A DNA stretch of 64,000 nt from Waddliaceae bacterium (lineage in GTDB: Bacteria; Chlamydiota; Chlamydiia; Chlamydiales; Waddliaceae), in NCBI GenBank assembly GCA_963822595.1, contig CAWGIG010000001.1, positions 1-64,000 on the forward strand, written 5' to 3'. Made by a program: the position numbers. Positions 45,001 through 48,000 of this stretch are shown piece after piece; the first letter of the stretch is position 1; each line of letters begins with the position of its first letter.

Positions 45001-48000
45001 ACCGACAAATTTATCCCGAAATTTTGCGATGCAAACTATGCGATCCCTTTTTTGTTGTTCTTCAAAATACTGTTTCCATTTTTCATGAGTATGTTGAAGA
45101 GTTGTCCAACGGAAAGTAAAAGTTTTCACAATTTCAGGAAGATCTTCTGCACTCAGTGTGTTTAATAAAAGTTCCATTTCTCCCTATAATTGTCTTTGAT
45201 CCCATTTATTACGATCCATACGATAAAGGACATGCCGACTTAGCCAGTGTCCTGAGGCTAATTTAGGATGATCGAAATCATCTTTGGGACTGCGACTCAT
45301 TCCTATTTTTTCCATGACCCGTTGGGATCTTTGGTTTTGTACCGCAGTAAACGAAACAATTTCATCAAGATTGAGAGTTTGGAATCCAAATTCCAATGCA
45401 GCTAGTGCCCCTTCGGCAGCATAGCCTTTTCCCCAATGCTCGTAAGCCAGCCTCCAGCCAATTTCCACAGCCGGAGTAAATGGTACTTTAAAAAATACAT
45501 CTCGCAGGCCAATCATTCCGATGCATTCATCTGTTTCAATGAGCGCTGCAGCCCAAAATCCCCATCCATCTTTATTAAAGGAATCGGATATATTTTCAAC
45601 AAATTTGTTACTTTCTTCCGTCGTCATAACTGAAGGAAAAAACTCCATAACTTTGGGATCCCCATTAAGTTTGGCAAAGGGGGCAAGATCCGATTCCTTC
45701 CAGGGGCGGCAGGATCAAACGTTCAGTTTTTAGAATATATTCTTTCATAATAGTGTCTTCCTTTTGTGAGGATCAGTATTATAATGAAACACATCTATTT
45801 TTTCTATTAATAAAAATTGAAATTTTTTGAAGAATAGGTAATATTTACGACAATTCATTATTGTCTTAGCCGGGCCATAGAACAATTAAACCAACATTTA
45901 CATTTGTGGAATTTATTCATGGGTCTGAAAGACCTAAAGATTTCAACAGCCCAGGTGAAGGCCGCCTTGAAAAGGCAACGCTCGCCTGGGTAGATCAATC
46001 AATACATCGTAGTCTGAAAGACTACAACATTTTCTGGATGGACGTATTATCTCATTTTGGAATTCTGAGAATTGGTCTCAAAATATCGCAACTAAAATTT
46101 CTGTTCCAGTCTTTCAGACTGAGAATCTTTTTATCGTTTTACCCAGGGGGGCGTTGCTGCTTTGCAGCGTCCTTCCCCTGGGCTATTGAAATCTTCTGGT
46201 CTTTCAGACCAAAGAATATGTTCAGCAAATAGGTGCATTTTTCGATAGGAACCCAAAATAAGTTCAGCAAAATAGGTGAACTCTTCAGCCTGAAAGGCTT
46301 TAACCTTTCTTTATTAGCATCGTTTCATGGACATTAAAATAATAAATTCACTTTTTGAAGATCACCCTTTTTTCCAGAATTCAAACGCGTTGGTAACTAC
46401 GTTTTGACGAAGTTTTGAGTCGTAATGGATCAAATTAGTCTTGGATATATCTATTCTCTGACGTTGCAAAGTGGCAAGAGTAAATAAAATCTCTTTTTTG
46501 TCCATGATCTGATTCCCTATTTTGGCTTCGATTTCAACAATTTTTCCGGCATCATCTGTATTAAAGATTCCCCCACCGCAGGCTTCCTGCTTGCCGGGGA
46601 TATATTCATTTATCTTGTCAATTTCCTGCTTCAAGTCTTTGATACGCATTTCAAGAGATTCAATTTCATGATTTCTTTTTGCTTGTTGGCGCTTGATTCC
46701 CTTAATCGACTTCAGAGAATTCACACGCTCTTCAGTTTTTTTAATTTTCAAATCGAGTTGTTGAATCTGAGCCTTCTTAGCCGGGCTATGGGTAAATACC
46801 TCTAATAATCTGTCTTCCCCCCTATACGATTTGCCCATATCATTGATGATAATCTGCCCTTTAAAATTTTGTAGTCCTTGAGGATTGCAAAATAAAGCTT
46901 CTCGCTTTTCCTTCATCTCTTCAAGCATCTCTAAACATTTTTCAGCATTCGGATAAGTTTTCGTTACTCCCGGCCCCGTATACAAGCTGAAAGTAGATTT
47001 TGACAAATCTAGACCATGATGTTTTAAACTTCTTAGCATCTGAAGATTTTCTTCATCTCCAGGACGATAGTGTCCACTTTTTCCCGAAAGATAGATGATC
47101 TTTCCCTCTTTGTCTGTTTTGAGTTCACCCGCAGCAATGATAGCGCCATCCGCTAAGAAACTCGAGTGGTGAAAAACATCCCCTATATGTGAGCCTGCAA
47201 AGAATTCTCCTTGAGGGCTTATGACAAAAATCGCATAGCCTTTTCCACTATGTAATGTCTTGTCATATTCAGTGTTATAGGGAATTCCATTTCTTTGCAC
47301 ATAGGTTTGTCCTTGACCATCTAACTGAAAGCTCAGTTGAAACAAAGGCCTTTGAGCTGGTTCTAAGCGTATAAAATTCTTTGATACAACTACCAAACTA
47401 TCGTCTTGCATCGTTCTCCAATCCACAAATGACATTCCTGCTCCTTTTAATCCCGAACCCTCCCACCGTGTGATCAAGGATTGATGACGTTCGGCTTTCC
47501 AATCATCAAAAGTCAATTTAGATCCTGCTTTGACCTCTTCCGCCCATGTTTTTTCTGAATGCCAATCGGCAAAATCACCCGGTGAACCGGCCTTTTTCCA
47601 CAACTCTAGTTTTTCAAAGTCTTTATTTGACATTGTAGAATCTGCCCACATCCTCTTGTTAAACAAATTATTGAACTCATTAAAAGAAAGATGGGGTGTT
47701 TCTTTTTGACGGATGGATTCTCTAAAATCATGTTCTTCTTTTTGCCATTTTTTGAATGAACTTTCCCCAGATCCAAATCTAACCCATATGCGCTTCAAAT
47801 CCCAAACTTCAAAACTATCCTTAGTACCCGATTTTTTCCATGCTTCCCTGGAGATCCATTCCATAACACTCAAATCTGTCCCCGAAGCCTTCCAAGCTTG
47901 AGTTTTTTGCTCACTCCATTCCGGAAAAGACAATTTGTTTTCCTTATCCTCTTTCCATAATTGAAGAAGTTCATTAACTAATGTCATGCTTTGTGTCTTA

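What the first reader, a model, noticed from the sequence alone, without database searches (positions are those of the whole stretch)
45923..46209. Four hairpin/operator-like motifs N-GTC-TGAAA-GAC-N' spaced ~90 bp apart in a 700-bp gene-free gap
The 5-bp stem plus TGAAA loop recurs four times, two in each orientation. The outermost base pair covaries (g·c, t·a, c·g, t·a), which argues for selection on pairing (RNA stem-loops) or on dyad symmetry (a dimeric regulator site). A GTTCAGCAAA(A)TAGGTG direct repeat follows. The only ORF here (45906..46232, 108 aa) is low-complexity and probably spurious.
Basis: seen in the sequence. Interest (0 to 1): 0.55.

Follow-up and report, generated by a model that had tools for sequence, protein, structure and literature searches.

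The report
Inverted pair of REP-like hairpin repeats
The four hairpins are two inverted copies of a non-coding, three-hairpin repeat that is scattered through many bacterial genomes and sits next to one particular small transposase-like gene, so it is most likely a miniature mobile DNA element and not a regulator-binding site.

Summary
GTCTGAAAGAC occurs four times in the window, against 0.03 expected.

The four hairpins are not independent sites. They belong to two convergent, 84%-identical copies of a ~115-135-nt unit:
- P1 hairpin
- a 9-13-nt joiner
- an A(U/C)AGCC tag
- a long P2 hairpin
- a linker
- a P1' hairpin

The same module recurs in over 200 fetched loci from Bacteroidota, Chlamydiota, Verrucomicrobiota, Armatimonadota and others. 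It is almost always intergenic and lies beside unrelated genes. Covariation is strong: 94% of cells are paired, and the score is 0.56 against 0.12 for shuffles. Wobble pairs fall on one strand only.

A small HUH Y1 gene (DH[VI]H ... Y---Q--HH, Quentin 2018 "subclass 1.2") lies beside the modules in 15 of 208 loci selected by hairpin. All five independent loci selected by protein also carry them, typically as [unit→] Y1 [←unit]. A related chlamydial metagenome sample holds at least 16 copies plus such a gene.

Some members reach the threshold of Rfam's orphan Acido-Lenti-1 "sRNA" model, on the opposite strand. The window copies do not.

Best reading: a REPIN-like, non-autonomous doublet of a REP-like family tied to an IS200-class Y1 enzyme. 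Mobilisation itself is inferred, not shown.

The parts
45895..46029 (+). Unit A: one full copy of the repeat (5' extension, P1, joiner, tag, P2, linker, P1', short 3' tail CAACA)
   Evidence: 84% identical to the reverse complement of 46095-46240. The covariance model R1 matches 45921-45992 at E = 2e-7. An nhmmer profile of the arms aligns the whole unit to copies in L074, L077, L020 and the Ga0207105 loci.
45920..45936 (+). P1 hairpin of unit A (stem around GTC/GAC, loop TGAAA)
   Evidence: Exact motif at 45923-45933. Folds in the MFE structure, z = -5.8 for the unit.
45946..45949 (+). Tag ACAG (family consensus A-U/C-A-G, followed by CC) at the foot of P2
   Evidence: Conserved A[TA]A[GA]CC / ACAGCC sits 9-13 nt after P1 in the family.
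45949..45991 (+). P2 hairpin of unit A: 10-bp outer stem CCCAGG../..CCTGGG, inner stem CCTT/AAGG
   Evidence: MFE fold. The inner stem is compensated relative to unit B. P2 pairs covary across the family.
46009..46025 (+). P1' hairpin of unit A (GTAGTC TGAAA GACTAC)
   Evidence: Exact motif at 46012-46022, fold. It is terminator-like on the + strand only.
46030..46101 (.). Unique ~70-nt spacer between the two tail-to-tail units. In relatives the Y1 gene occupies this position.
   Evidence: No similarity between the arms here. Tail-to-tail doublets with 15-90-nt spacers occur in L020, L074, L046, L056, L091, L099 and L105. The arrangement [unit->] Y1 [<-unit] is seen in L167, L216, L006 and L065.
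46100..46240 (-). Unit B: inverted second copy. P1 46197-46211, tag ATAG 46183-46186, P2 46141-46183 with inner stem GCTGC/GCAGC, P1' 46107-46121, 5' extension to about 46240.
   Evidence: R1 matches 46140-46211 (-) at E = 4e-9.
46215..46286 (+). Two copies of a ~30-nt direct repeat, AATA(T/A)GTTCAGCAAA(A)TAGGTG.. The first copy is the 5' extension of unit B and the second is a tandem duplicate of it.
   Evidence: the repeat finder families D2 and D5. Alignment of the arm flanks.
46287..46299 (+). Solitary P1-like hairpin AGCC TGAAA GGCT, with a compensated stem and no P2
   Evidence: Weak R1 match at 46286-46313, E = 0.38. It lies 63 nt beyond the stop of the 692-aa ORF.

Best explanation
The locus is a tail-to-tail inverted doublet of a composite REP-like repeat. 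This is a REPIN- or MITE-like, non-autonomous element.

Each unit has this order:
- P1, a hairpin with a conserved C-UGAAA-G loop
- a 9-13-nt joiner
- an A(U/C)AG tag
- P2, a hairpin with a variable sequence
- a linker
- P1', a second hairpin of the P1 type

The family is dispersed in intergenic DNA of Bacteroidota, the PVC phyla including Chlamydiota, Armatimonadota and others. It is genetically linked to one clade of small HUH Y1 enzymes. That clade belongs to the IS200/IS608 class and carries DH[VI]H, W.(N/E)GY and Y---Q--HH, which matches 'subclass 1.2' of Quentin et al. 2018.

In relatives the Y1 gene sits between a direct and an inverted unit. The window copy has only a 70-nt spacer in that position.

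Proposed mechanism (inferred, by analogy with IS608 TnpA and E. coli TnpA-REP):
- When the TGAAA-bearing strand is single-stranded, for example at a replication fork, it folds into the hairpins.
- A Y1 dimer supplied in trans recognises the P1/P1' loops.
- It cuts and rejoins near the tag or the unit ends, so that units are copied, moved or amplified into tandem arrays.

Once in place, the hairpins may also act in transcripts as a 3'-end barrier or terminator. That role would be secondary.

What is shown: the anatomy, the family, the covariation, the strand-specific pairing, the dispersal and the linkage to Y1. What is inferred: binding, cleavage and mobility.
For: Anatomy:
- Two inverted 84%-identical units, each with three hairpins and a compensated inner P2 stem.

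Family and context:
Most non-CRISPR hits share the P1-joiner-AUAGCC-P2 layout.
- 77 of 82 modules are intergenic. Only 1 of 82 lies between divergent genes. Flanking genes belong to 78 different Pfam families.

Structure:
- Model R1 finds 98 modules.
- 94.4% of cells are paired and 11 of 13 pairs change on both sides.
- The covariation score is 0.559, against 0.120 for shuffles and at most 0.087 for slid partners.
- G.T wobbles outnumber A.C by 46 to 5 on the TGAAA strand, p = 2e-9.

Linkage to Y1:
- Y1_Tnp genes are present in 8 of 120 genome loci and 7 of 88 metagenome loci that were fetched by hairpin pattern alone.
- In most of these loci the Y1 gene lies within a few hundred bp of modules; in L104 the patterned array itself is ~1.8 kb away.
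- 18 of 19 carry DH.H and Y...Q..HH. The nineteenth is a pseudogene.

Reciprocal test:
- Y1 homologues chosen by protein alone are all flanked by modules whose P1 stems and loops covary: GCCCTGAAAGGGC, GTCCTGTAAGGAC, GGCCTGCAAGGCC.
- The loci are L124 Mariniradius, L125 Bacteroidia, L214 Parachlamydiaceae, L216 Chlamydiota and L217.

Chlamydial relative:
- Metagenome sample Ga0207105 holds at least 16 near-identical units on at least 13 contigs.
- It also has [unit->] Y1 [<-unit] in L167.
- Its contig L140 is 65-69% identical to window 51733-53313.

Other:
- Tail-to-tail doublets recur in seven other loci.
- Tandem copy number differs between near-identical loci: L006 against L014, and L117 against L104.
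- The closest solved relative of the Y1 protein is IS608 TnpA, with HUH and Tyr aligned.
Against: - No Y1 gene lies in the 64-kb window. The rest of the source genome could not be examined.
- The window holds only one doublet, plus one related cluster. High copy number in this particular genome is therefore not shown.
- No presence/absence polymorphism, excision footprint or target site was found, so mobility is not demonstrated.
- The Y1 proteins fail NCBI's RAYT model (20-42 bits against a cut-off of 80).
- Quentin et al. 2018 reported no REPs for this subclass.
- The canonical GT[AG]G tag is replaced by A(U/C)AG.
- Covariation and G.U-type wobbles would fit a transcribed RNA equally well. 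Rfam files part of the family as an sRNA.
Confidence: 0.7

Rival explanations
1. Two convergent genes for a small structured RNA, that is, divergent Acido-Lenti-1-type sRNAs. The hairpins would fold in the transcript and act in trans or as protein-binding RNAs. The Y1 linkage would then be incidental or regulatory.
For: - Strong covariation and strand-specific wobble pairs.
- z-scores of about -5.7 for each arm folded as RNA.
- Rfam's Acido-Lenti-1 model (type sRNA) reaches its gathering score on family members, including L137, which has the exact GGTCTGAAAGACC P1.
Against: - Rfam's orientation is opposite to the strand favoured by the wobble pairs.
- No conserved promoter or terminator flanks the unit.
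- Among co-directional neighbours the unit is antisense 15 times and sense 7 times.
- Inverted doublets, head-to-tail arrays of up to 14 copies and multi-copy dispersal beside unrelated genes are typical of repeats, not of sRNA genes.
- A Y1 gene is bracketed by inverted units, which is typical of repeats, not of sRNA genes.
- The window arms do not match the Rfam model even at E <= 10.
Confidence: 0.15
2. Host-selected 3'-end structures. The doublet would mainly be a bidirectional terminator or mRNA-stabilising barrier between the 692-aa gene and the GNAT gene cluster, with no mobility.
For: - Family members prefer the space downstream of genes: 21 cases between convergent genes against 1 between divergent genes.
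- P1'-type hairpins followed by T-rich tracts score as terminator-like.
- REP elements in E. coli are known to have such effects (established knowledge).
Against: - The terminator-like calls in the window are on the + strand, whereas both flanking genes are on the - strand.
- A terminator does not need an 11-nt loop motif, a fixed joiner and an AUAG tag conserved across phyla.
- It also does not explain the adjacency to Y1 genes or the tandem arrays.
Confidence: 0.1
3. Operator sites: four dyad-symmetric double-stranded sites bound by a dimeric transcription factor that controls the flanking genes.
For: Each motif is a perfect GTC-N5-GAC dyad. The sites lie upstream of the GNAT gene cluster.
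Against: - Across the family the half-sites vary freely, provided they stay complementary.
- The asymmetric centre TGAAA is what is conserved.
- Pairing tolerates G.T but not A.C, so it is strand-specific.
- The sites occur beside unrelated genes, and mostly at their 3' ends.
Confidence: 0.02

Closest known systems
REP / REPIN / BIME elements with their RAYT (TnpA-REP) Y1 transposases (Nunvar 2010; Bertels & Rainey 2011; Ton-Hoang 2012)
   Same: - Short palindromic units dispersed in intergenic DNA, mostly downstream of genes.
- Frequent inverted doublets with a short spacer, and clusters of mixed subtypes. For example, L105, L046 and L047 pair two unit subtypes, as BIMEs do.
- A tetranucleotide tag ending in AG at the foot of a hairpin.
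- A low-copy HUH Y1 gene bracketed by inverted units (REPtron layout).
   Different: - The unit is composite, with three hairpins over about 100-135 nt, not one 20-40-nt palindrome.
- The most conserved feature is a hairpin loop (C-UGAAA-G) shared across phyla.
- The tag is A(U/C)AG, not GT[AG]G.
- The Y1 protein belongs to the IS200/IS608 class (Y---Q--HH) and fails the RAYT model.
- The carriers are Bacteroidota, PVC phyla and Armatimonadota, not mainly Proteobacteria.
- Head-to-tail arrays are common.
Acido-Lenti-1 RNA motif (Rfam RF01687; Weinberg et al. 2010), a candidate sRNA of unknown function
   Same: The architecture is the same when read on the other strand: an 8-bp hairpin, then GCUA, then a ~12-nt linker, then a 5-bp hairpin. 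This equals P2, tag, joiner and P1. Family members reach Rfam's gathering score: L217 three times, L197 three times, and L216, L186, L168 and L137 once each. L137 has the exact GGTCTGAAAGACC P1.
   Different: - The window arms do not match the model even at E <= 10. Their P2 carries a 22-nt insertion and the joiner is 13 nt.
- Rfam models only P1 and P2, not P1' or the doublet.
- Rfam's strand is opposite to the one supported by the wobble pairs.
- No link to a Y1 gene was reported. The only note was 'sometimes near group II introns'.
IS200/IS605 insertion sequences (IS608, ISDra2) and their transposase-less derivatives (PATEs)
   Same: - The associated protein is closest to IS608 TnpA and passes NCBI's IS200/IS605 model.
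- Recognition of subterminal hairpins on one DNA strand fits the strand-specific pairing.
- The spacing of about 9-10 nt between the P1 foot and the tag resembles the 10 nt between the IS608 right-end hairpin and its cleavage site. This comparison is from memory, so treat it as a lead only.
   Different: - IS200/IS605 ends carry hairpins in the same orientation. Here the units flanking Y1 are inverted.
- Subclass 1.2 genes are low-copy. In Weeksellaceae the Y1 gene sits between the two halves of metH in all three loci examined (L104, L117, L122; L117 and L122 are the same locus). That suggests a resident gene, not an active IS.
GTAG- and CGTC-tagged REP superfamilies (Di Nocera et al. 2013)
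   Same: Tagged palindromic repeats that form head-to-head or tail-to-tail dimers. They are found in PVC phyla and Bacteroidetes. Many copies of P1 read CGTC-TGAAA-GACG.
   Different: In CGTC REPs the CGTC is an unpaired tag next to an 8-9-bp stem with a 4-5-nt loop, and no transposase was linked to them. Here the GTC is part of the stem, the unit has several hairpins, and a Y1 gene is linked.

Membership tests
REP/REPIN-RAYT system | [quoted passage not shown] | tested here: inconclusive
   Met for the family: at least 16 near-identical units on at least 13 contigs of the chlamydial sample Ga0207105, and 77 of 82 modules are intergenic. For the window's own genome only 64 kb is available. It holds one doublet and one related cluster.
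REP/REPIN-RAYT system | Two units in inverted orientation separated by a short spacer (REPIN) | tested here: met
   Arms 45895-46040 and 46095-46240, 84% identical, with a ~70-nt spacer. The same tail-to-tail layout occurs in L020, L074, L046, L056, L091, L099 and L105.
REP/REPIN-RAYT system | Conserved GT[AG]G tetranucleotide at the 5' foot of the palindrome | tested here: not met
   The tag is ACAG / ATAG in the window and A[TA]A[GA] in the family. It holds the same position but has a different sequence.
REP/REPIN-RAYT system | A cognate Y1 HUH gene flanked by the same units in inverted orientation (REPtron) | tested here: inconclusive
   Met in relatives: L167, L047, L006/L014, L065, L216, L125 and L214. 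No Y1 gene lies in the window, and the rest of the genome was not available.
REP/REPIN-RAYT system | The Y1 protein belongs to the RAYT / TnpA-REP class (class 2; NCBIfam NF047646) | tested here: not met
   Scores are 20-42 bits against a cut-off of 80. The proteins pass the IS200/IS605 model NF033573. The signature Y...Q..HH matches subclass 1.2. The closest solved structure is IS608 TnpA.
Acido-Lenti-1 RNA motif (RF01687) | Match to the Rfam covariance model at or above the gathering score (37 bits) | tested here: not met
   No match in 45650-46400 even at E <= 10. Relatives do match: L137 38.5 bits, L217 47-52 bits, L197 39-41 bits, L216 40 bits.
Acido-Lenti-1 RNA motif (RF01687) | Two hairpins (8 bp and 5 bp) joined by a ~12-nt linker that starts with GCUA | tested here: met
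   On the reverse strand, P2-CTAT/CTGT-joiner-P1 has this layout. P2 is longer because of a nested inner stem.
Acido-Lenti-1 RNA motif (RF01687) | Expressed as a discrete non-coding RNA | not testable with these tools
   No expression data. Promoter and terminator scans are uninformative.
IS200/IS605 insertion sequence or PATE | Left and right subterminal hairpins in the same orientation; the autonomous form carries tnpA inside | tested here: not met
   The units flanking Y1 genes are inverted relative to each other. The window element has no ORF with a Pfam match.
Operator sites of a dimeric regulator | Conserved half-site sequence in double-stranded DNA, symmetric on both strands, linked to a regulon | tested here: not met
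   The stems vary while the loop is conserved. G.T to A.C is 46 to 5. The neighbouring genes are unrelated.

The most novel reading that the evidence does not exclude
The C-UGAAA-G / AUAGCC modules, including the orphan Acido-Lenti-1 'sRNA' of Rfam, are the cognate REP-like DNA substrates of the very large 'subclass 1.2' clade of Y1 HUH proteins. That clade has at least 8000 protein clusters and was reported in 2018 as having no REPs and no IS ends.

If so, this is a second, independently domesticated REPIN-RAYT-type partnership. It would derive from the IS200 class, not the RAYT class. It would span Bacteroidota, the PVC phyla, Acidobacteria and Armatimonadota, with a recognition loop conserved across phyla.
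Probability: 0.55. Interest if true: 0.65.

Novelty: new variant of a known kind. Interest (0 to 1): 0.5.

Why it matters
If correct, three things follow.
- It gives a function and a partner to two orphans at once. One is a 2010 Rfam motif annotated as an sRNA of unknown function. The other is an abundant clade of IS200-like Y1 genes that genome pipelines call "transposase", although they behave like resident single-copy genes.
- It extends REPIN/RAYT-type intragenomic replicators beyond Proteobacteria, to gut Bacteroidales and to intracellular Chlamydiota.
- It offers a simple biochemical test: the Y1 protein with single-stranded hairpin oligonucleotides that carry a phylum-wide conserved loop.

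For annotation, these loci should not be called sRNA genes, operators or ORFs.

Tried and rejected
- Rfam on the window, at gathering thresholds and at E <= 10 on 45650-46400: only chance miRNA/sRNA matches.
- Literature search for the 11-mer: only primers.
- CRISPR: several scan hits are true CRISPR arrays whose repeat begins with GTCTGAAAGAC (Thaumarchaeota L002, L029, L049, L088; also L092, L042). They have variable spacers and are unrelated, so they were excluded.
- Pseudoknot between the UGAAA loop and UUUCA in the joiner: present in the window and some Prevotella copies, but not conserved.
- tRNA-Phe anticodon-arm mimicry, boxB-like pentaloop, hammerhead or twister cores: considered from memory. 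Nothing matched the layout, and Rfam gave no support.
- CGTC-tagged REPs (Di Nocera 2013): a different geometry.
- A Y1 gene in the window: the weak tblastn hit at 34604-34816 is a 299-aa coiled-coil ORF, not a Y1 protein.
- Exact look-up of the GNAT protein to find the source contig: not on record.
- Look-up of the 195-aa Cob adenosyltransferase: only a 2.9-kb contig was returned.
- Viral contigs: 23 pattern hits, no more than composition would give. Only a handful are true modules, so there is no phage link.
- Literature searches for REPs in Chlamydiae, or for hairpin repeats with IS200 in Bacteroides: nothing relevant.
- Orientation relative to replication (lagging-strand bias) could not be assessed on fragments.
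Full report
**1. Observation**

The 713-bp gap lies between the start of a GNAT acetyltransferase gene (45184-45648, -) and the stop of a 692-aa coiled-coil ORF (46362-48440, -). It contains GTCTGAAAGAC at 45923 and 46012 on the + strand, and at 46109 and 46199 on the - strand. These are the only four copies in 64 kb. Shuffles give 0.03 expected. A variant with a compensated stem, GCCTGAAAGGC, lies at 46288. The 108-aa ORF across the region has no Pfam match.

**2. True anatomy**

- The four hairpins are not separate sites. The repeat finder reports a 106-nt imperfect inverted repeat.
- Aligning 45895-46040 (+) with the reverse complement of 46095-46240 gives 84% identity over about 135 nt.
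- Each arm consists of a ~25-nt 5' extension, P1, a 13-nt joiner, the tag ACAG or ATAG followed by CC, P2, a ~18-nt linker and P1'.
- P1 has its stem around GTC/GAC and the loop TGAAA.
- P2 is a 43-nt hairpin with a 10-bp outer stem, CCCAGG../..CCTGGG.
- P1' is a second GTC-TGAAA-GAC hairpin.
- The inner stem of P2 differs between the arms by compensatory changes, CCTT/AAGG against GCTGC/GCAGC.
- Each arm folds far better than shuffles on either strand, z about -5.7.
- The units are tail to tail, with the P1' ends facing a unique ~70-nt spacer.
- Within the window there are no further close copies.

**3. A large family**

My own rough estimate of the chance expectation is about 2.

- Some hits are CRISPR arrays or other tandem repeats.
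- About 60 non-redundant hits share the layout n-GTCTGAAAGAC-n', a joiner, then A[U/A]A[G/A]CC and a hairpin whose sequence differs from taxon to taxon. Examples of the P2 stems are CCGCGGGU/ACCCGUGG, CCGUAGGU/ACCUACGG, CCCCUGGUU/AACCAGGGG and CCUAGGUC/GGCCUAGG.
- The joiner is usually 9-12 nt, or longer when it carries an inserted hairpin.
- The taxa include Bacteroidales, Prevotella, Muribaculaceae, Salinivirgaceae, Saprospiraceae, Verrucomicrobiales, Chthonomonadales and a Chlamydiae MAG.

*Context.*

- 77 of 82 modules are intergenic.
- The commonest setting is between convergent genes (21 cases). Only one module lies between divergent genes.
- The 82 neighbouring ORFs fall into 78 different Pfam families.
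- This is therefore a dispersed repeat, not a leader or a gene-specific element.

*Covariance model and pairing.* A covariance model built from 12 modules finds 98 matches in 726 kb. They include both window arms, at E = 5e-8 and 2e-6.

| Measure on that alignment | Value |
|---|---|
| Cells paired | 94.4% |
| Pairs changed on both sides | 11 of 13 |
| Covariation score | 0.559 |
| Score for shuffles | 0.120 (0 of 500 reach the observed value) |
| Score for slid partners | at most 0.087 |

- Just outside the fixed GTC/GAC core, positions +-1 and +-2 are Watson-Crick in 54% and 41% of 293 contexts. Shuffles give about 25%. All four pair types are used.
- G.T wobbles outnumber A.C mismatches 46 to 5 on the TGAAA strand, p = 2e-9.
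- Pairing is therefore selected on one specific single strand. That excludes a double-stranded dyad operator, and it excludes a cruciform that would need both strands.

**4. The link to a Y1 HUH gene**

*Hairpin-selected loci.*

- Two of the 82 neighbouring ORFs matched Pfam Y1_Tnp.
- tblastn then found Y1 genes in 8 of the 120 genome loci: L047, L006, L014, L065, L064, L005, L117 and L104.
- Each has modules nearby, most within a few hundred bp, and typically a direct unit or array ends 25-60 nt before the start codon.
- An inverted unit typically follows just after the stop.
- L047 (Bacteroidaceae) has the gene embedded in at least 12 alternating units of two subtypes, which looks like a BIME or REPtron.
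- A second scan, of metagenomes, used the window-type pattern GGTCTGAAAGACC-N8-14-AGCCYAGG. It gave 88 loci, and 7 of them carry a Y1 gene next to the module.
- Background Y1 density is on the order of one per genome (my estimate, from Quentin 2018). That would predict fewer than one Y1 gene in the ~1.2 Mb fetched.

*The protein clade.*

- The proteins are about 150 aa with DH[A/V/I]H, W.(N/E)GY and Y...Q..HH. 18 of 19 are intact and one is a pseudogene.
- This is the signature of 'subclass 1.2' in Quentin et al. 2018.
- That paper describes the subclass as having a 148-aa median length, low copy number and a Cyanobacteria/Bacteroidetes distribution. It lists REPs as 'no' and notes no typical IS200 ends.
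- The proteins pass NCBI's IS200/IS605 model and fail its RAYT model.
- Their closest solved relative is IS608 TnpA, with HUH and Tyr aligned.
- The clade is very large, with at least 8000 clusters at E < 1e-10.

*Reciprocal test.* I took homologues chosen by protein only and fetched their contigs.

- The loci are L124 (Mariniradius), L125 (a Bacteroidia MAG), L214 (Parachlamydiaceae), L216 (Chlamydiota) and L217 (a 432-kb contig).
- All are flanked by the same kind of unit.
- The P1 and P1' stems and loops covary: GCCCTGAAAGGGC, GTCCTGTAAGGAC, GGCCTGCAAGGCC, GTCCTGAAGGGAC.
- L122 (Kaistella) duplicates L117, so it does not count as independent.
- In Weeksellaceae the gene sits between the two halves of metH. 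This suggests a resident gene, not a hopping one.

**5. Chlamydial relatives**

- The window's gene content includes proline-rich eukaryote-like kinases and a MurF-alanine racemase fusion.
- Window 51733-53313 is 65-69% identical at the nucleotide level to contig Ga0207105_1102.
- Together these place the window near an environmental Chlamydiae MAG from that sample (L031).
- That sample holds at least 16 near-identical full units on at least 13 contigs. Most are head-to-head doublets.
- Contig Ga0207105_1105 (L167) carries [unit->] Y1 [<-unit], duplicated in tandem. The protein is also held by NCBI (P0121).
- The right boundary of the unit is P1' followed by GGCATA.
- In L216 the Y1 gene is bracketed tightly by ...P1'-GGCATAT[ATG...stop]ATATGCC-P1'....
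- The window doublet has the same geometry, with a 70-nt spacer in place of the gene.
- Tail-to-tail doublets with 15-90-nt spacers recur in seven other loci.
- This is how REPINs are thought to relate to REPtrons.

**6. Relation to Rfam**

- Scanning relatives showed that Rfam's Acido-Lenti-1 model (RF01687) reaches its gathering score on P2-tag-joiner-P1 of several members.
- The matching loci are L217 (three times), L197 (three times, on both sides of the Y1 gene), and L216, L186, L168 and L137 (once each).
- L137 carries the exact GGTCTGAAAGACC P1.
- All of these matches are on the strand opposite to the one I call sense.
- Weinberg et al. 2010 list the motif as 'probably RNA, not cis-regulatory', with 89 members in Acidobacteria and Lentisphaerae. 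Their only comment is that it is sometimes near group II introns.
- A 2026 preprint still calls its function unknown.
- The window arms do not match the model at E <= 10, because P2 carries a 22-nt nested insertion and the joiner is longer.
- The window element is therefore a divergent relative of a known orphan motif.
- The link to the Y1 gene appears not to have been reported in the literature I could search.

**7. Mechanism**

*Shown:*
- a multi-hairpin unit
- strand-specific pairing under selection
- dispersal beside unrelated genes
- doublets and arrays
- tandem copy-number differences between near-identical loci (L006 against L014, L117 against L104)
- genetic linkage to an intact HUH Y1 gene

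*Inferred, by analogy with IS608 TnpA and E. coli TnpA-REP (established knowledge):*
- the TGAAA strand folds when it is single-stranded
- the Y1 dimer recognises the conserved P1/P1' loops
- it cleaves and rejoins near the AUAG tag or the unit ends
- this copies or moves the units

The constant 9-10 nt between the P1 foot and the tag resembles the IS608 right-end geometry as I recall it, so it is a lead only. A secondary role in transcripts is possible, as a 3' barrier or terminator for the 692-aa gene. It is not supported by the strand of the terminator-like calls.

**8. Verdict**

- The RNA reading remains a minority rival.
- The best explanation is a REPIN-like doublet of a REP-like family tied to an IS200-class Y1 clade.
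- It is a new variant of a known kind.
- The particular copy in this window is an ordinary member. The interest lies in the family-level link.

Noticed in passing
window 55916-56240: A second cluster of related modules lies just downstream of the MurF-alanine racemase fusion gene (53341-55821). There is one copy on the - strand (55916-55982), two on the + strand (about 56055-56121 and 56130-56196), and a partial fourth. P1 here has a 17-nt loop (GAGTC-CGGAGCGCATCGCGAAG-GAC). It is followed by a ~10-nt joiner, AAAGCC and a covarying P2 (CCCGGGGT..ACCCGGGG against CCCACGGT..ACCGTGGG). R1 scores are E = 5e-4 and 7e-3.
   Followed up: partly
L025 3296-4425; also L009, L013, L116 (Kordia spp.): Head-to-tail arrays of a 77-92-nt unit, 14.7 copies at 96% identity in L025. 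The unit contains the GTCTGAAAGAC hairpin but a different second half (TTAGTTGAACTAA, TCCTGATGAAAATCAGGA) and no AUAGCC tag. The arrays lie between housekeeping genes (AsnC-type regulator / PEP carboxylase; subtilase). No Y1 gene lies within 8 kb.
   Followed up: partly
L002, L029, L049, L088 (Nitrosopumilaceae / Nitrosotalea), L092, L042: True CRISPR arrays whose 37-nt repeat begins with GTCTGAAAGAC (GTCTGAAAGACTAATCCATCAAAACAAGGATTGAAAC). They share the 11-mer with the element, but I take this to be coincidence.
   Followed up: no
L104, L117, L122 (Weeksellaceae, e.g. Kaistella jeonii): The Y1 gene and its upstream module array are inserted between the S-methyltransferase part and the pterin/B12-binding part of methionine synthase (metH). 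The locus also carries a SAM riboswitch. The number of upstream units differs between species, 1 against 4.
   Followed up: partly
L047 4300-6140 (Bacteroidaceae MAG): Around the Y1 gene, two unit subtypes alternate on opposite strands. One has P1 GCGTCTGAAAGACGC and the other CCGTCTGGAAGACGG. The pattern is reminiscent of the Y/Z REP mosaics (BIMEs) of E. coli.
   Followed up: partly
loops of P2 in many loci (e.g. L008, L018, L022, L031, L048): The P2 loop often contains GCGAAGC. As I recall, this is the sequence of an unusually stable DNA mini-hairpin. That would fit folding as DNA, but I did not test it.
   Followed up: no
window 10930-11020 and 12443-12533: Two near-identical ~90-nt stretches lie 1.5 kb apart, each containing ATT-CTGAAAG-AAT. 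They look like part of a duplicated segment unrelated to the element.
   Followed up: no
window 41777-43522 and 46362-50848: Several large ORFs have no domain match or only weak ones. One is a 581-aa protein-kinase-like ORF with a very proline-rich tail. Another is the 692-aa coiled-coil ORF next to the element. There are also two paralogous ORFs of 470 and 205 aa. They look like effector-type genes of an intracellular bacterium.
   Followed up: no
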